Shown here: piece after piece, positions 288 to 23,700 of the stretch
How the letters are laid out: every line of letters begins with the position of its first letter
Numbering within the stretch: the stretch's first letter is position 1
Origin: Anaeromyxobacteraceae bacterium
GTDB taxonomy: Bacteria; Myxococcota; Myxococcia; Myxococcales; Anaeromyxobacteraceae
NCBI GenBank assembly: GCA_047602405.1
Contig: JASGHJ010000001.1
Coordinates: 2,240,001 to 2,304,000, forward strand
Direction: 5' to 3'
DNA: 64,000 bases
The notes under the pieces: generated by a model
Databases searched by the model: none
Seen by the model: the letters and a program-made list of their open reading frames with translations, nothing else
What the model was told of the DNA's origin: nothing
Position numbers and translations under genes: made by a program

Positions 288-1208
288 ATGTCGTCCCAGG
301 TCCCCGCGCCGCGGAGGCGCGTCACCATCCACGAGCTCGCGCGCATGAAGGCCGCGGGCGATCCCATCGCGGTCGTCACCGCCTACGACGCCACGGCGGC
401 CCGCTGGGCCGACGCGGCCGGCGTCGACGTCATCCTCGTCGGCGACTCGCTCGGCATGGTCGTGCAGGGCCACGACTCGACGCTGCCGGTCACGCTCGAC
501 CAGATGGTCTACCACGGCGCCGCGGTCCGCCGCGGGCTCGCCAGGGGTTCGGGCCGGCCGCACCTCGTCGTCGACATGCCGTTCGGCAGCTACCACGCGA
601 GCGTGGACGAGGCCGTGAAGGCCGCCGCCCGGCTCGTCGCCGAGGGCGGGGCCGAGGCCGTGAAGCTCGAGGGCGGCGCCGAGTTCGTGGAGGTCGTGAA
701 GCGCATCACGCGCGCGGGCGTGCCGGTCATGGGCCACATCGGCCTCACGCCGCAGTCGGTCCACAAGATGGGCGGCTACGTCGTGCAGGGGAAGGACGCC
801 GACAAGGCGGCCCTGATCCTGAAGGACGCCCTCGCCCTCGAGGCGGCGGGCTGCTACGCGATCGTGCTCGAGTGCGTCCCGGAGGAGCTCGCCCGCGTCG
901 TCAGCGGCCGGCTCTCCATCCCGACCATCGGCATCGGCGCCGGCGTCCACTGCGACGGTCAGGTGCTCGTGCTCAACGACCTCCTCGGCATGGATCCGTC
1001 GTTCACGCCGAAGTTCGTGAAGCACTTCGCGACCGTCTCGGAGGCGGCCACCGCCGGCATCGCGGCCTACGTCGCCGAGGTGAAGGGCCGGACCTTCCCG
1101 GACGACGCCCACAGCTTCCACGCGCCCAACGTGCGCCTCCTGCCGCTGCCCGCGCTCGCAGGCGACGACGAGGAGCCCCACGGCGGCGTGATGGGGGCGC
1201 CGGTCTAG
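288..1208 (+). CDS. panB: 3-methyl-2-oxobutanoate hydroxymethyltransferase
   Basis: [47 protein letters not shown] motifs. Confidence 0.97.
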
Positions 1209-1218
1209 CGCCACCTCC

Positions 1219-2088
1219 ATGAAGACGCCCGAGCTGTTCACGAGCCCCGCCGCTTGGGCGGCCCGCTGCCTCGCGGCCCGCGACGCGGGCACCCGCATCG
1301 CGCTCGTGCCGACGATGGGGTTCCTCCACGAGGGCCACCTCTCGCTCATGCGGGAGGCCAGGCGCCGCGCGGACGCCGGCGGCCGCCCCGGGCTCGCCCT
1401 CGCGACGATCTTCGTGAACCCCGCCCAGTTCGGCCCGAGGGAGGACCTCTCGCGCTACCCGCGCGACCTCGAGGGCGACCTCGCGAAGTGCGCCGCGGCG
1501 GGCATCGACGCCGTGCTCGCGCCGCCCGACCCGGCGCTCGTCTACGGGCCCCACCACCAGACCTGGATCGAGGTCGGCGACGTCGCCCAGGGGCTCTGCG
1601 GCGCCTCCCGCCCCGGTCACTTCCGCGGCGTGGCGACCGTGGTCGCGAAGCTCCTCAACCTGTCGCGCCCGCACGTCGCGCTCTTCGGCGAGAAGGACTT
1701 CCAGCAGCTCGCCGTGATCCGCGCGATGGTCCGCGACCTCGACCTGGGCGTCGAGATCTCCGGGATGCCCATCGTGCGCGAGCCGGACGGCCTCGCGATG
1801 TCCTCCCGGAACGCCTACCTCTCGGCCGACGAACGCCTCCGGGCGCTCGCGCTCTCGCGGTCGCTCGCCGCCGCCGCCGAGGCGGCGCGCCGCGGCGAGC
1901 GGGACGCGGCCGCGCTCCGGGCCCGCGCCCGGGCCGCGCTCGAGGCCGCGCCCGTCAAGATCGACTACGTCGAGATCGTGGAGCCGGAGACCCTGAAGCC
2001 CGTGGAGGTGGCGGCGCCCGGCGCGGTGATGCTCGTCGCGGCCTTCGTCGGCACGACCCGGCTCATCGACAACGCGAGGCTGCCGTGA
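1219..2088 (+). CDS. panC: Pantoate--beta-alanine ligase
   Basis: VPTMGFLHEGH, IFVNPAQF, RPGHFRGV, FGEKDFQQ, GLAMSSRN, RLIDN motifs. Confidence 0.97.
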   Translation: MKTPELFTSPAAWAARCLAARDAGTRIALVPTMGFLHEGHLSLMREARRRADAGGRPGLALATIFVNPAQFGPREDLSRYPRDLEGDLAKCAAAGIDAVLAPPDPALVYGPHHQTWIEVGDVAQGLCGASRPGHFRGVATVVAKLLNLSRPHVALFGEKDFQQLAVIRAMVRDLDLGVEISGMPIVREPDGLAMSSRNAYLSADERLRALALSRSLAAAAEAARRGERDAAALRARARAALEAAPVKIDYVEIVEPETLKPVEVAAPGAVMLVAAFVGTTRLIDNARLP

Positions 2089-2576
2089 AGGGCGCCGCGG
2101 GCAAGAAGCGGGTCGCGGAGGGCGAGAAGGTCGTCGCCTCCAACCGGCGCGCGCGCTTCGACTACACCATCGAGGACGCGTGGGAGGCCGGGCTCGTGCT
2201 CACCGGCAGCGAGGTGAAGTCGCTGCGCGAGAGCAACGTGAACCTCTCCGACGCCTACGCGCAGCCGCGGGGCGGCGAGCTCTTCCTCGTGAACTGCCGG
2301 ATCGGCGAGTACAAGCAGGCCGCGCACTTCGGGCACGACCCGCTGCGGGAGCGCAAGCTCCTCATGTCCCGCGCGGAGCTCGAGCGCGTACGCGGCAAGG
2401 TCGAGCAGCGCGGCTACACGCTCGTCCCGCTGCGCCTGTACTTCAAGGACGGCTGGGCGAAGGTCGAGCTCGGCCTCGGGAAGGGCCGCACCCACGAGGA
2501 CCGGCGCGACGCCATCGCGGAGCGCGAGTCCAAGCGGGAGGTCGAGAAGGCGCTCGGCCGGGCGCGCAAGCGCTGA
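2085..2576 (+). CDS. smpB: SsrA-binding protein SmpB
   Basis: GTG overlaps the panC stop; NRRARFDY..EAGLVLTGSEVKSLR, RKLLM, GYTLVPL, KVELGLGKG motifs. Confidence 0.95.
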   Translation: MKGAAGKKRVAEGEKVVASNRRARFDYTIEDAWEAGLVLTGSEVKSLRESNVNLSDAYAQPRGGELFLVNCRIGEYKQAAHFGHDPLRERKLLMSRAELERVRGKVEQRGYTLVPLRLYFKDGWAKVELGLGKGRTHEDRRDAIAERESKREVEKALGRARKR

Positions 2577-2684: not shown

Positions 2685-3590
2685 ATGTTCGACCGGCTCA
2701 GCCTCCCCGAGGACGTCGTCGACTGCCGCGGCCGCCTGGTCGCGCGGCGGGGCTTCGTCGTGTCGCCGGAGGTGATCGACGAGGCCGCCGCGACCGCCTC
2801 GCCGGAGGCGCCCGTCGCGCTCTCCGGCACGCCGCTCGCGCTCGACGTCGCGGACCCGCTCGACGACCCGACGTACCAGCACCTGTTCCAGGGCCCCGAG
2901 GTCCGCGACGCCGTCGAGCGCGTGCTCCTCGGCGTCCGGCTGCCGCCGGTGCTCTTCGAGGAGTTGCTCGCCGCGCGCCGCAACGGCTCGCCGGTGCACC
3001 GCCACGCCTTCGTGACCGCCGCGGTCGCGGTGCGGATGCTGCTCTCCGCGCTCGGCGAGGCCCGCGGCCTGAGCGACCTCGCCGCGGCCGCGCTCCTCCA
3101 CGACCTCGGCATGCGCCACCTCCCGGCGCGCCTCCTGCGCGGCCAGGAGCGCCTGACCCGCGACGACGCCGACCGGATCGCCTCGCACCCGCTCGTGGGC
3201 GCCTACCACCTCGCGACCGTCCTCGGCCGCCACCCGGCCGTCTCCGCCGCCCGCAGCCATCACTGGCGGTGCGGCCAGGGCTACCCGGTGTTGCCGTCGG
3301 CCCCGCCGCGCTCCATCGAGGTCATCTCGGTCGCGAGCGCCTTCGCGGCGCTCACGCAGCCGCGCTCCTACCGCTCCGGCGCCTTCGACGCCCGCGGCGC
3401 CTGCGACGTCCTCGTGGAGGAGGCCGCCCGCGGCCGCGCCGACGGCTCCTCCGTGAAGCTCCTCGTCCACGCGCTGCGCGGCGGCCGCGGCGACCCGCGC
3501 GCCATCCGCTTCGGGCACGAGCGCGTCGGGCACACGCCCGAGCAGAACGGCTACGTCCCGCCGGCGCCGCCCGACCGCAATCCGGTCTAG
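2685..3590 (+). CDS. HD-GYP-like domain protein (degenerate)
   Basis: LLHDLGM, HPLVGA, HHWRCGQGYP and ASAFAALTQPRSYR resemble HD-GYP motifs; start could be 2619 or 2685. Confidence 0.7.
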   Translation: MFDRLSLPEDVVDCRGRLVARRGFVVSPEVIDEAAATASPEAPVALSGTPLALDVADPLDDPTYQHLFQGPEVRDAVERVLLGVRLPPVLFEELLAARRNGSPVHRHAFVTAAVAVRMLLSALGEARGLSDLAAAALLHDLGMRHLPARLLRGQERLTRDDADRIASHPLVGAYHLATVLGRHPAVSAARSHHWRCGQGYPVLPSAPPRSIEVISVASAFAALTQPRSYRSGAFDARGACDVLVEEAARGRADGSSVKLLVHALRGGRGDPRAIRFGHERVGHTPEQNGYVPPAPPDRNPV

Positions 3591-3757
3591 GTTTGGTCGT
3601 TCGCATGCAGGCCCGCCGCGAGCTCCGCGGGCACCTCCGCTGTCGGCATGCGTGTCCGTGGGAGCCAAACGGGCCTCCGCGACAGCGCTTGCTCGGACGG
3701 GTGTGAGACGGAACAGATCGCCGGAACCGTTGCCGTTGCATGGCGGTGACCGCCGCA

Positions 3758-3859
3758 GCAGGCCTGCGCGCGAGTTGCGCGTATCGGCGTCGTGCGCTAC
3801 GCGCACGGCGCCGACACACGCCCTCGTCACTTGGCCTGCATTGCCAGGATCCTGGAGAC
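3758..3859. repeat. Hairpin-core repeat, copy A (inverted relative to 4187-4289)
   Basis: 11 differences over 103 aligned columns against the reverse complement of 4187-4289; folds as a long hairpin closed by GCAGGCC/GGCCTGC. Confidence 0.9.
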
Positions 3860-4186
3860 CGTACCGAGCCCGTCGCTCGCTGCGCGCTGCTGCGGAGACC
3901 CGTTTGGCTCTCGGGCGTGGTGGACGGTGAGCGGCCGTGGCTGCTGGGTGCTGATGAACGACCAACGGGCCCGCTGGTGTTGCGGCGACGGGCTCCCATT
4001 CATCCGCGCTGGTGCATGCTCCGGTCTCTGCCCGTCCCCGCCCGCCCCGCGTCGTTCACCCGCCGCATCTGATTCACCTTTAGTTCATCACTCGCCACCT
4101 AGCAGTTTCGGCCGACCGCAGTCCGCAACGCTCCGAAGGCGAGACGCGCCCCCGCAGCGCCGGCCGGCGGAGGTCGGGCTCTCCAC

Positions 4187-4289
4187 GTCACCAGGATCCT
4201 AGCGAATGCAGGCCAAGTGACGAGGGCGTGTGACGGCGACGTGCGCGCAGCGCACGGCGTCGTCACGCGCAACTCGCACGCAGGCCTGC
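4187..4289. repeat. Hairpin-core repeat, copy B
   Basis: Inverted copy of 3758-3859 with a compensatory change in the apical stem. Confidence 0.9.
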
Positions 4290-4290
4290 C

Positions 4291-4337
4291 TGGTTCGACT
4301 CCGCCGCGCTTCGCGCGGCTACGCTCACCATGAGCGG
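4291..4337 (-). repeat. Palindromic REP-like element, family 1 (intergenic copy)
   Basis: Minus strand CCGCTCA-TGGT-GAGCGTAG-CCGCGC-GAA-GCGCGG-CGGAGTCGA-ACCA. Confidence 0.85.
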
Positions 4338-4448
4338 GAGATGTGGTGACGTCAGACCGACGCAGCCGGCCGGCGTCGCGGGGGCGCGTCGAGCCCCCTC
4401 GGTCACGTGACGCCGACTGCCTTGGGGGCCCTGCGGTGCGGGTAGGGT

Positions 4449-4787
4449 TCAGCCCTTCGGGAGCAGCACCTCGCGCAGGTAACTCCACGAGAAGATGCCG
4501 GTGTCGTGCCCGTCGGAGAAGTGCAGCTTCACGGCGTAGTTGCCGACCGGCTCGATCTCCGCGATGCGGATGCCGGCGGGGATGGTGGCGGGATCCAGGA
4601 TCTTCCGGCCCGAGCCCTCCTCGACGCAGCCCGCGCAGGGGCACGCGTCGCGCAGCCCGAACGCGGACACCACGGTCTCGAGGCCGCCCGGCCAGACGAA
4701 GCGCAGCTCGCCCTGCTCGGTGAAGTCGATCGCCTCCGGCGGCTCGGCCGTCTGGCTCTTGAACTGGATCTTGTCGAGGAGGCCCAT
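4449..4787 (-). CDS. DUF971 / gamma-butyrobetaine hydroxylase N-terminal-like protein
   Basis: LRDACPCAGC and VGNYAVKLHFSDGHDTGIFSW motifs. Confidence 0.88.
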   Translation of the reverse strand: MGLLDKIQFKSQTAEPPEAIDFTEQGELRFVWPGGLETVVSAFGLRDACPCAGCVEEGSGRKILDPATIPAGIRIAEIEPVGNYAVKLHFSDGHDTGIFSWSYLREVLLPKG

Positions 4788-20700: not shown

Positions 20701-23700
20701 CGCGGGTGGGTATCTCGTCACCGCCACGGTCGGGGCCTTCTCGACCACGTTCTCGCTCACCAACACCCCCGGCGCCGTGGCCTCGATCGCGGCCGTCGGC
20801 GGCAGCGGCCAGTCCGCCACGGTCGACACCGCGTTCGGTGCCGGCCTCTCGGCCAAGGTGGCCGACACCCACGGGAACGGCGTGCCCGGCGTCACCGTCA
20901 CCTTCGCGGCGCCGGCGTCCGGCGCGCGCGCGTCGCTCTCGGCCGCGACCGCCACCACGAACGCCTCCGGGATCGCGGCGGTGACCGTCACCGCGGGCAC
21001 CGCCGCCGGCGCCTACCAGGTGAGCGCCACGGCGTCCGGCGCGGCCTCGCCGGCCACCTTCGATCTCACGAACACCCCCGGCGCGGTCGCCGCCTTGACC
21101 ACCGCCTCCGGCTCGACGCCGCAGAGCGCGACGGTGGGCGGCACGGCCTTCGCGGGTGCGCTCGCCGTCACCGTGACGGACGGGTTCGGCAACCCGACCC
21201 CGGGCGTCACGGTCACCTTCGCCGCGCCCGCCCCTCGCGCGACCCTCTCGGCCGCCGCCGCGACCACGAACGCCACGGGCGTCGCCCAGGTCACGGCCAC
21301 GACCGGCGCCGTCGCCGGCAGCTACTTCGTGACCGCGACGGCGTCGGGCCAGACCGCCGCGTTCGCGCTCACGAACCTCGCCGGCCCTGCCGCGAACGTC
21401 GTGGCCGTCTCCGGAGCGACCCCGCAGTCGGCGACCGTCGGGACCGCCTTCGCGAACCCGCTCGGCGTGACCGTCTCCGACACCTACGGCAACCCGATCC
21501 AGGGCGTCACGGTCTCGTACGCGGCGCCGGCCACGGGCGCGAAGGCCAGCCTCTCGCCCGCCACCGCCACCACCGACGCCGCCGGCCTCGCCGCGGTGAC
21601 CGCCACGGCGGGCACCCTCGCCGGCCCCTACGTCGTCACCGCCAGCGCGGCCGGCGTGGCGACCCCGGCCTCCTTCGCGCTCACGAACCTGCCCGGCGCG
21701 CCCGCCTCCATGACGGCCGCCGGCACCGCGACGCCCCAGTCGGCGACGGTCGGGGCCGCCTTCGCGAACCCGCTCGCCGTCACCGTCCGGGATGCGTCCG
21801 GGAACGTGGTCCCCGGCGTCACGGTCGACTTCACCGCACCGGCCTCCGGCGCGCGCGCGAGCCTCTCGGCCGGCAGCGCCACGACCGACGCGACCGGCAG
21901 GGCCTCGGTCACCGCCACCGCGGGGACCGTGGCCGGCGCCTACACCGTGTCCGCCGCCCTCTCCGGCGGCCCGTCGGCGTCCTTCGCGCTGACGAACCTC
22001 GCCGACGCCGCCGCGGCCCTCGTGCTCGAGGCCGGCGACGGGCAGGCCGCCACCGTCGGCGGAAGCTTCGCGACCGCGCTGGGCGTCCGCGTGCGAGACG
22101 CGCAGGGCAACCCCGTCGCGGGCGTCCTCGTCTCCTTCTCGTCCCCGGCCTCCGGCCCGACCGCGGTCGTGTCCGCGCCCTCGGTCACCACCGGCGCCGA
22201 CGGCAAGGCGAGCGTCACCGCGACCGCCGGCACGATCGCCGGCGCGTACCAGGTCACGGCGTCCGCCCCGGGGGCCGCCGCCCCGGTCGCGTTCCAGCTC
22301 GAGAACCTCGCCGGCGCGCCCGCGGCGATCGCCGCCGTGGCGGGCTCCACGCCGCAGACCGCGCCCGCCGGCGCGATCGCGTTCGCGAATCCGCTCGCGG
22401 TGCTCGTCTCCGACGCGCACGGCAACCCGGTCCCCGGCGCGCAGGTCGACTTCGCCGCCCCGGCGGCGGGCGCGACCGCGGGCCTCTCGGCGCCGGGCGC
22501 CACGACCGACGCCGCCGGCGTGGCGGGGGTCGAGGCGACCTCCGGCGACGTGGCCGGCACGTTCAGCGTCACCGCGAGCGTCGCGGGCGGCCTCTCGGCC
22601 TCCTTCGAGCTCACGAACGCCCCCGGCCAGCCCACGACCCTCACGCTCGTCTCCGGCGACCCCCAGGCGGCCTCCGCCGGGACGGCCTTCGCCCTCCCGC
22701 TCGCCGTGCACCTCGCCGACGCCCACGGCAACGCCGTGCCGGGCGTGACCGTCGCGTTCCTCGCGCCGTCGAGCGGCGCCCGCGCGGCGCTCTCCTCGGG
22801 CGGCGTCGCGACCGACGCCGCCGGGGACGCGGCGGTCACCGCCACCGCCGGCACGATCGCCGGCGCGTACCAGGTCACGGCCGGCGCGAGCGGGGTCGCG
22901 AGCCCGGTCGTGTTCCACCTCGAGAACCTGGCCGGTGCCGCCGCGGTCGTCACCGCGGCGCCGGCCGCCGCCACGCAGGCGGCCAAGGTCGGCACCGCGT
23001 TCGCCCAGCCGCTCGCGGTGCTCGTCGCCGACGCCCACGGCAACCCCGTGTCCGGCGCCACCGTGACGTACGCGGCGCCGTCGAGCGGCGCGCGCGCGCA
23101 GCTCTCCGCCGCGTCCGCCACCTCCGGCGCGACGGGCGCCGCGTCGGTCACCGCCACGGCCGGCACGGTCGCGGGCGCGTACGTCGTGACGGCCTCCTGC
23201 GGCGCGGCCACCCCGGCCACGTTCGACCTCACCAACACGGCGGGCGCGCCGAGCACCGTCGCGGTCTCGGCGGGCGGCACCCAGTCCGCCGCGGTCGGCT
23301 CGGCCTTCGGGGCCCCGCTCGTGGCGATCGTCCGCGACGCGAGCGGCAACCCGGTCTCCGGGGTGACGGTCGCCTTCGCCGCCCCGGCCGCGGGGGCCCG
23401 CGCCACGCTCTCGGCGCCCGAGGCCGTCACCGCGGCCGACGGCAAGGCCTCGGTGACGGCGACCGCCGGCACCGTCGCCGGGCCCTACGCCGTGACGGCG
23501 ACCTTCGCCGGCGCGGCCGCGCCCGCGTCGTTCCCGCTCACGAACGTCGCGGGGGCGGCGGCCACGGCCGTCGCGGACGCCGCCTCCTCCGAGCAGGCGG
23601 CCACGGTCGGCGCCGCCTTCGCCGCGCCGCTCGCCGTGACGGTCGCCGACACGTTCGGCAACCCGGTCGCCGGTCAGGCCGTCGCGTTCGCCTGCCCGGC

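What the first reader, a model, noticed from the sequence alone, without database searches (positions are those of the whole stretch)
3593..4440. Pair of inverted, nested rod-like hairpin elements sharing a conserved ~100-nt core: candidate undescribed ncRNA or ssDNA element
Seen: ~850 bp between convergent genes with no credible ORF. Core A (3758-3859) and core B (4187-4289) are inverted copies with 11 differences in 103 columns. Each folds into one long hairpin closed by GCAGGCC/GGCCTGC and followed by a conserved C(C/T)AGGATCCTGG palindrome, with a compensatory T-A to A-T swap in the apical stem. Each core is enclosed by further long stems of unrelated sequence. A: 3593-3602/3956-3965, 3661-3688/3884-3911, 3696-3702/3868-3874. 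B: 4143-4168/4365-4390, 4185-4193/4344-4352. Both longest outer stems are interrupted by a similar 2-nt mismatch. Several core mismatches become G-U pairs if A is read on minus and B on plus, i.e. divergently from the spacer. Inference: structure is conserved while the flanking sequence is not, which points to a functional folded RNA or ssDNA (divergent sRNA pair, REPIN/MITE-like non-autonomous element, or orphan msDNA-like repeat). No partner enzyme lies in this window.
Basis: partly seen in the sequence, partly recalled or inferred. Interest (0 to 1): 0.8.

Follow-up and report, generated by a model that had tools for sequence, protein, structure and literature searches.

The report
Giant hairpin repeat targeted by IS1111
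The two hairpins are the arms of one of 16 scattered copies of a roughly 770-base gene-less DNA repeat that sits between converging genes of a myxobacterium; it likely folds as single-stranded DNA and likely spread as a selfish element rather than being an RNA gene, and an insertion sequence whose predicted guide RNA matches the repeat sits in four of the copies.

Summary
The structure is real. Window 3641-4417 is one of 16 intergenic loci (31 arms) of a repeat family: two inverted ~330-bp arms, each a nested ~255-nt rod, around a variable spacer. 15 of 16 loci lie between convergent genes. Intact arms were found only in this genome, one sister genome and one metagenome contig. Across 32 arms, 15 of 53 pairs change on both sides, and stem halves match in 32 of 32 arms while nested layers reassort. 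The apical loop is the DNA mini-hairpin GC-GNA-GC on one strand in 26 of 32 arms, as in the genome's ~230 CGTC-type repeats. An IS1111 element (4 of 4 copies) sits in the arms' inner motif, which its predicted guide matches; the window copy holds an empty one-mismatch site. The outer stems are homologous, the GGATCC palindrome is not conserved (7 of 32), and there is no family-wide G-U strand bias. Best reading: an oversized REPIN/BIME-like non-autonomous ssDNA repeat, old and decaying; no mobilizing enzyme found, no RNA data. The scan already reported what appears to be this family at another locus (e1-9979641).

The parts
3641..4417 (.). Whole element: one copy of a dispersed ~690-890 bp repeat made of two inverted arms and a spacer
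   Evidence: 31 arm matches at 16 loci in the genome and nothing weaker; ends from alignments
3641..3967 (+). Left arm (type 1), read from outer end to spacer
   Evidence: alignment A1; profile match 2243643-2243968
3642..3658 (+). Variable terminal segment starting GTNG-GCA; with the P unit it forms a ~40-bp monomer that is tandemly stuttered at some other loci
   Evidence: GTNG in 13 of 15 left ends, exact GTAG in 2 (counted)
3659..3688 (+). 5' strand of the left outer stem (P unit), with the invariant GA at 3681-3682
   Evidence: helix 1, 27 pairs, 8 with changes on both sides; GA/CT in 32 of 32 arms
3758..3842 (+). Left core rod; apical loop TAC at 3798-3800 reads GC-GTA-GC on the minus strand
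3884..3913 (+). 3' strand of the left outer stem (inverted P unit), with the invariant CT at 3890-3891
3914..3967 (+). Left inner motif, unpaired within the arm and complementary to the right inner motif
3968..4071 (.). Variable low-complexity spacer
   Evidence: distance between inner P units 142-346 bp in the 10 IS-free two-armed loci listed
4079..4088 (+). Unoccupied IS1111 target, one mismatch from the predicted guide match; the insertion point would be between 4081 and 4082
4072..4417 (-). Right arm (type 2), read from outer end to spacer on the minus strand; outer stem 4138-4168/4365-4395
4205..4289 (+). Right core rod; apical loop GCA at 4247-4249 reads GC-GCA-GC on the plus strand
4292..4337 (+). 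A copy of the genome's small CGTC-type hairpin repeat (here called Q) in place of the arm's side branch; shared only with the copy at C2:518798
   Evidence: Q-type repeats flank the small GIY-YIG gene L052
2619..3590 (+). Flanking host gene, HD-domain protein (not part of the element)
   Evidence: PF13487/PF01966
4449..4787 (-). Flanking host gene, GBBH-like_N protein (not part of the element)
   Evidence: PF06155

Best explanation
This is one copy of a dispersed, gene-less, two-armed palindromic DNA repeat that likely works like an oversized REPIN/BIME: each arm is predicted to fold when the DNA is single-stranded, and an unidentified hairpin-recognising enzyme encoded elsewhere would have copied the element into gaps between converging genes. 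Shown: the anatomy, 16 loci, the placement, the paired changes, presence/absence in a sister genome, and an IS1111 inserted at the inner motif in four loci. Inferred: folding as DNA rather than RNA (from the GNA mini-hairpin caps shared with the CGTC-type repeats); mobilisation in trans by a Y1 HUH (RAYT-like) or GIY-YIG enzyme; exchange of nested stem layers between copies with loss of mispaired products; and decay by deletion between the repeats. Because the arms are inverted, either strand carries one arm in the GNA-capped orientation. The family looks old and slow: no two arms are more than 93% identical.
For: 31 arms at 16 loci. 15 of 16 between convergent genes (14 by script, the 15th from the ORF) against 289 of 1791 gene gaps on contig C1 (crude gene caller). 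Intact arms in 1 of 36 other genomes of the genus, 1 of 91 of the family with a covariance model and 1 of 362 of the order (7 further short weak matches, 4 of them read and unlike the arm), so it spread within one lineage. At 10 loci with both flanks found in G010: two arms at 1, collapsed at 2, end remnants at 2, no arm at 5. 97.9% of cells paired, 15 of 53 pairs change on both sides; slid controls 31-53%. 5' and 3' alleles agree in 32 of 32 arms for three layers and 30 of 32 for the apex while layers reassort. Loop is TNC inward, so GC-GNA-GC outward, in 26 of 32 arms, and GCA inverted in 1; 159 of 223 Q repeats have the same loop against 600 of 5202 perfect 3-nt-loop hairpins genome-wide. 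All 4 IS copies lie at the arm's inner motif, as ISPa11 does in REPs (PMC11187229, passages).
Against: No mobilizing enzyme is tied to it: no arm-like DNA outside the 16 loci and none beside 31 Y1 and 3 GIY-YIG loci from six genomes. Copy number is far below that of typical REPs. The GTAG tag is exact in only 2 of 15 left ends. No excision or insertion event was seen, and no near-identical pair exists, so present mobility is unshown. 5 of 32 arms have 4-nt loops. Paired changes can also come from template switching or gene conversion without selection, and the arms are related, so the shuffle control is not a probability. Every arm has its outer end facing a gene's 3' end, including the single-arm locus, which an mRNA 3'-end role would also predict.
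Confidence: 0.6

Rival explanations
1. The arms act as RNA at the 3' ends of the two flanking mRNAs (read-through hairpins that block exonucleases or end transcription), and the host keeps the fold for that reason.
For: 15 of 16 loci are convergent and the single-arm locus also faces a 3' end; G-T cells are more numerous on the inward, mRNA-sense strand, 160 against 104; REPs are proposed to act this way (PMC3733652, abstract).
Against: The sister genome has lost or collapsed the element at 9 of 10 resolved loci; other species put unrelated repeats at the window's site; no terminator-like site; distinct wobble alleles favour the other strand, 19 against 13. It does not explain dispersal and can coexist with the best reading.
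Confidence: 0.15
2. Each arm is a single-strand initiation signal or single-stranded promoter (ssi/sso/Frpo-like) that primes DNA synthesis on whichever strand is exposed.
For: GNA mini-hairpins occur in the ssiA signal and the phage N4 promoter (PMC13037366, passages); the arm is a 255-nt imperfect rod with an invariant mismatch; inverted duplication serves both strands.
Against: No match in 72,556 plasmids or 50,697 phages or in viral contigs; no sigma70-like boxes on the linear sequence; dispensable in the sister genome.
Confidence: 0.08
3. A classical MITE: the arms are very long terminal inverted repeats left by a lost DDE transposon.
For: Terminal inverted repeats around a variable non-coding middle.
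Against: The only gene found between arms is a later IS1111: 99-100% identical among copies while arms are at most 93% identical, in both orientations, and not found in G010 with this query. No target duplication is evident at five arm-less orthologous sites, though divergence blurs them. Internal self-pairing is not a MITE need.
Confidence: 0.07
4. A pair of divergent small RNAs transcribed outward from the spacer.
For: In this copy the outward strands fold better; conserved inner motifs flank the spacer.
Against: No family-wide strand bias; no promoter or terminator match; no Rfam match; the spacer is variable and is deleted or interrupted at several loci; the outward loop is a DNA-type GNA triloop.
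Confidence: 0.05
5. Retro-copied msDNA-like repeats (msr-msd relics).
For: An outer inverted repeat enclosing small stems and one long hairpin resembles retron msr-msd architecture (recalled, not tested); msDNA-like repeats are reported in Nannocystis (title seen in a reference list only).
Against: None of 8 reverse-transcriptase matches is at a copy; the nearest lie about 15-23 kb away and 7 are one multicopy 484-aa frame; retrons are not known to me to occur as inverted pairs between convergent genes.
Confidence: 0.05

Closest known systems
REPINs and BIMEs (REP doublets moved by RAYT; PMC3116915 passages, PMC3733652 sections 5 and 14)
   Same: Extragenic, lineage-restricted, inverted doublets of a short palindromic unit that fold into a long hairpin; heterodimers; conserved and variable spacers alternate; mosaic higher-order array; downstream of genes; target of an IS110/IS1111 element.
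   Different: Each doublet is ~255 nt with a structured interior instead of 20-100 bp spacers; the unit is a doublet of doublets of ~750 bp; only 16 loci; tag degenerate; no RAYT gene flanked by the repeat.
CGTC-tagged REPs / Ssn-related motifs with GIY-YIG ssDNA nucleases (PMC3733652 section 6; PMC11893778 passages and Discussion)
   Same: The genome's Q repeats are of this look, flank a small GIY-YIG gene, share the apical loop set (TGC, TTC, TAC, TGAA) with the arms, and one is built into the window's right arm.
   Different: The published SRM pattern matches 0 of 32 arms; the arms are ten times longer and flank no nuclease gene; L052 was not shown to be an Ssn.
IS1111 family with seekRNA (PMC11187229 passages), e.g. 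ISPa11 in REPs; ISPpu9 in REPs (PMC12288879, search listing only)
   Same: The 1470-bp passenger has a DEDD transposase, 12-bp subterminal repeats, 7/3 extensions, a 3' non-coding region and two target-matching words in the published order.
   Different: Its target is this undescribed repeat; relatives at 69-84% identity carry other guide words and lie in other targets.
Bacterial MITEs
   Same: Gene-less, terminal inverted repeats, intergenic.
   Different: No target duplication seen, no cognate transposase, arms pair internally with covariation.

Membership tests
REPIN/BIME | Short palindromic units in inverted doublets that fold into a hairpin | tested here: met
   Four P units in alternating orientation per element; outer stem of 27 pairs
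REPIN/BIME | Dispersed, extragenic, downstream of genes, lineage-restricted | tested here: met
   16 loci, 15 convergent; 1 of 91 other genomes of the family
REPIN/BIME | High copy number (usually over 100 REPs) | tested here: not met
   31 arms
REPIN/BIME | Terminal GTAG-type tag | tested here: inconclusive
   GTNG in 13 of 15 left ends, GTAG in 2; right ends more variable
REPIN/BIME | RAYT gene flanked by the same repeat | tested here: not met
   No arm-like DNA beside 31 Y1 loci or anywhere outside the 16 loci; four Y1 proteins tested score under the NCBIfam RAYT cut-off
REPIN/BIME | Excision or cleavage by a RAYT | not testable with these tools
   Needs raw reads of the host or biochemistry
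Ssn/SRM (CGTC-type) | Match to the published SRM pattern | tested here: not met
   0 matches in 32 arms, both strands; 72 in the genome, some of them Q repeats
Ssn/SRM (CGTC-type) | Repeat flanks a cd10448 GIY-YIG gene | tested here: not met
   No arm beside the 3 GIY-YIG loci; L052 is flanked by Q repeats; its subfamily was not determined
MITE | Terminal inverted repeats without a gene | tested here: met
MITE | Target site duplication | tested here: inconclusive
   None evident at five arm-less orthologous sites that are too diverged to be clean
MITE | Autonomous transposase with the same ends | tested here: not met
   the only cargo is a separate IS1111
Retron msr-msd | Adjacent reverse transcriptase gene | tested here: not met
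   8 RVT_1 matches, none at a copy
Retron msr-msd | Branching G and msDNA product | not testable with these tools
   Needs a small-ssDNA gel
Integron attC site | Integron integrase in the genome | tested here: not met
   0 matches over the TIGR02249 cut-off among 9
Known RNA family | Rfam match at gathering score | tested here: not met
   3 chance-level miRNA matches, 19-24 bits against cut-offs of 67-137
IS1111 (the passenger) | DEDD transposase | tested here: met
   PF01548, PF02371; NF033542 at 235.5 bits, cut-off 140
IS1111 (the passenger) | 11-13 bp subterminal inverted repeats with 7-bp left and 3-bp right extensions | tested here: met
   12-bp repeats; the 7/3 cut restores the target in 4 of 4 copies
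IS1111 (the passenger) | 3' non-coding region with top-strand match before bottom-strand match | tested here: met
   Guide words track the flanks in this IS and in 6 of 7 related copies read, poorly in L357 (read by eye); the RNA itself was not observed

The most novel reading that the evidence does not exclude
A new class of non-autonomous mobile DNA: a ~750-base single-stranded cloverleaf (two GNA-capped rods plus paired ends and paired inner motifs) grown out of CGTC-type repeats, moved by a hairpin-cutting enzyme other than a RAYT, such as the GIY-YIG nuclease that the Q repeats flank, and evolving by swapping whole nested stem layers between copies, with its own RNA-guided IS1111 hyperparasite.
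Probability: 0.17. Interest if true: 0.75.

Novelty: new variant of a known kind. Interest (0 to 1): 0.5.

Why it matters
If the reading holds, REP-like selfish palindromes can grow to about 750 bases with layered, exchangeable stems kept under strict pairing, which widens what such elements look like and warns that strong covariation in an intergenic hairpin need not mean an RNA gene. It also supplies a natural case of a seekRNA tuned to a host repeat, with an empty near-cognate site in this window, and a defined single-stranded substrate for testing which of the host's uncharacterised Y1 or GIY-YIG enzymes moves gene-less repeats. The reach is limited: two sister species, no enzyme, no activity shown, and the scan has seen the family before.

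Tried and rejected
Rfam: chance-level matches only. Partner enzyme: Y1, GIY-YIG, reverse transcriptase and integron integrase gave no gene flanked by the arms; IS91-type Y2 and rolling-circle Rep families were not searched. A resemblance between the left end and a hairpin upstream of Y1 locus L046 is a single instance and was set aside. The IS as autonomous parent: rejected. IS relatives as bait for distant family members: their flanks hold no arm. Expression: no RNA holder listed, which is no evidence either way. Contigs of four DNA runs hold pieces of the arms and the same alternative filling of the window's site as G010, but none spans the element. Left-right matching within an element: only the core is above permutation (0.797 against 0.776, p=0.009, one of nine segments tested); ends and inner motifs are not, so the cloverleaf pairing has no covariation support. 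Whole-arm flip-flop as in rolling-hairpin replication: not seen, only one apex is inverted. attC reading: no integrase, no conserved L boxes. The arm extraction was faulty for 12 arms and was redone. Six loci (b, c, e, k, I1, I4) could not be placed in the G010 DNA fetched.

Full report
Observation. The region lies between an HD-domain gene ending at 3590 (+) and a GBBH-like_N gene ending at 4449 (-). Rfam gives only chance matches. Four details fail: the outer stems are homologous (18 of 25 identical on each side), the AGGATCCTGG palindrome is in 7 of 32 arms, the outermost 10-bp stem has no counterpart at 13 other loci (all), and the strand preference is not family-wide.

It is a repeat family. 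A profile of the arm finds 31 arms at 16 loci of the 6.16-Mb, 74% G+C genome and nothing weaker. Fourteen loci have two full inverted arms, one has two arms fused at a shared core, one has a single arm. The element runs from about 3641 to 4417. Each arm, read from the outer end, is: a variable terminal segment, a P unit, a side branch, the core rod, the inverted P unit, and an inner motif. Fifteen of 16 loci lie between convergent genes (14 by script; the fifteenth from the ORF), against 289 of 1791 gene gaps on contig C1 by a crude gene caller. The only records that carry the element (L123, L129, L130) are titled Anaeromyxobacter sp., which is my basis for the host group.

Distribution and history. 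Intact arms occur in 1 of 36 other genomes of the genus, 1 of 91 of the family with a covariance model (strict filters) and 1 of 362 of the order. That genome, G010, is 92-94% identical in flanking genes. One 439-bp metagenome contig holds an arm. At the 10 loci where both flanks were found in G010, it has two arms at one, collapsed forms at two, end remnants at two and no arm at five; short end-like words remain at the window's site and at one other (read by eye). Four other species have unrelated short repeats or almost nothing at the window's site. No two arms exceed 93% identity. So the family spread inside one lineage before or around the species split, and has since lost copies by deletion between its own repeats. 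Whether it still moves is unshown.

The fold is kept. On 32 arms (29 of 31 from this genome, leaving out the fused locus, and 3 from G010), 97.9% of cells pair, 15 of 53 pairs change on both sides, and slid controls pair 31-53%. The arms are mosaics of a few alleles per layer. The two halves of a layer, 10 to 250 nt apart, agree in 32 of 32 arms for the P unit, the outer stem and the core base and in 30 of 32 for the apex, yet layers combine in many ways. A single crossover between arms would break this, so such products are lost or not formed. A GA/CT mismatch in the outer stem is invariant. Caveat: the arms are related and template switching also yields paired changes.

DNA or RNA. The apical loop is TGC (14), TTC (11) or TAC (1) on the inward strand, that is GC-GNA-GC on the outward strand, in 26 of 32 arms; one arm has it inverted and five have 4-nt loops. 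GCGNAGC is the extra-stable DNA mini-hairpin; RNA counterparts are much less stable, and it occurs in ssDNA signals such as ssiA and the N4 promoter (PMC13037366, passages). The genome's small CGTC-type repeats (Q, 230 strict matches) carry the same loop in 159 of 223 scored, against 600 of 5202 perfect hairpins genome-wide. Q-type repeats flank a small GIY-YIG gene, and one replaces the side branch of the window's right arm. G-U wobble gives no consistent strand, there are no promoter or terminator matches, and no RNA run holds the stretch (no evidence either way). I read this as single-stranded DNA, with an mRNA 3'-end role still open.

The passenger. Four loci carry a 1470-bp IS, and it occurs nowhere else in the genome. 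It has a DEDD transposase, 12-bp subterminal repeats with 7/3 extensions and a 3' non-coding region, the marks of IS1111 (PMC11187229, passages). Removing it restores the same target, CCGTT|AGTTCA, in 4 of 4 copies, in either arm's inner motif; no unoccupied exact copy of the nine-base core remains in the genome. The non-coding region holds a word complementary to the right half followed by a word matching the left half, in the published order. In 6 of 7 related IS copies read (69-84% identical proteins) the words at these two positions change with the flanks; L357 fits poorly and an eighth locus (L359, truncated) was not read. The IS is therefore a later, likely RNA-guided parasite of the repeat and not its parent. 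The window's site 4079-4088 differs by one base and is empty.

Mechanism. Most likely the element works like a REPIN or BIME (PMC3116915 passages; PMC3733652 abstract and sections 5, 6, 14): a gene-less palindrome that folds on exposed single strands and was copied in trans. The enzyme step is inferred. No Y1, GIY-YIG, reverse transcriptase or integron integrase gene is tied to it, so it fails the RAYT-flanking and copy-number tests for membership while resembling the family in behaviour. It also fails the published SRM pattern of the Ssn system (PMC11893778 abstract, passages and Discussion). Rivals are a 3'-end RNA element (0.15), a priming signal (0.08), a DDE MITE (0.07), divergent sRNAs (0.05) and msDNA relics (0.05).

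Novelty. Seven literature searches showed no description of this family; most subscription journals are outside the library, and I read no supplementary files, where repeat lists of the REP and SRM papers could bear on the claim. What I add from my own calls is the layer concordance, the GNA link to the Q repeats and the guide-matched IS1111; I saw only a few lines of that note and cannot tell whether it has these too. Notes e1-1536033 and e1-4704862 pointed to the GIY-YIG/SRM comparison, e1-9583776 to the single-strand signal rival. Verdict: new variant of a known kind, interest 0.5.

Noticed in passing
G000:C2:480590-482070, 980630-982110, 1993990-1995460, 2508395-2509880: New IS1111-family element (1470 bp, 4 near-identical copies). 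Relatives in G128, G138, G107, G112 and G071 show guide words that change with their targets, a small natural reprogramming series; the two G128 copies differ from each other in both guide words.
   Followed up: yes
L354 (G138:C95), 3' non-coding region of the IS: An inverted-repeat-bounded insert of about 170 bp sits next to the predicted left-guide word of this IS1111 relative.
   Followed up: no
genome-wide; window 4292-4337; L052: About 230 CGTC-type hairpin repeats (Q) with a variable inner hairpin, often nested inside each other; an array of them flanks a small GIY-YIG gene at C1:1892872. Short matches to them occur in many genomes of the genus.
   Followed up: partly
L045-L050 and further places: At least six diverged Y1 HUH (RAYT-like) genes, several near-identical copies of one type, all under the NCBIfam RAYT cut-off where tested.
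   Followed up: partly
L054-L060: Seven identical-scoring 484-aa reverse-transcriptase frames plus one partial copy (L061); probably a multicopy group II intron, not classified.
   Followed up: no
L094 (G023:C1:4436620-4437250): At the window's orthologous gap this species has about three and a half tandem copies of a ~168-bp multi-hairpin unit unrelated to the element.
   Followed up: no
L092 (G010:C5:107882-108558): At the window's orthologous gap G010 has a small predicted lipoprotein gene, with a ten-base word like the element's left end just after the HD gene; two sequencing runs show the same 675-base filling.
   Followed up: partly
L105 642690-642800; G000:C2:1350372; C2:3293080; C2:3365440: The terminal 30-40 bp of the element is tandemly stuttered at several loci, up to four times in G010.
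   Followed up: no
window 288-2576: panB, panC and an SmpB-like frame precede the HD-domain gene (names recalled from the translations, not tested); ordinary housekeeping context.
   Followed up: no
G000:C1:3400-5450 and 20850-22900: Identical motif hits in mirrored positions suggest a large inverted duplication near the start of contig C1.
   Followed up: no
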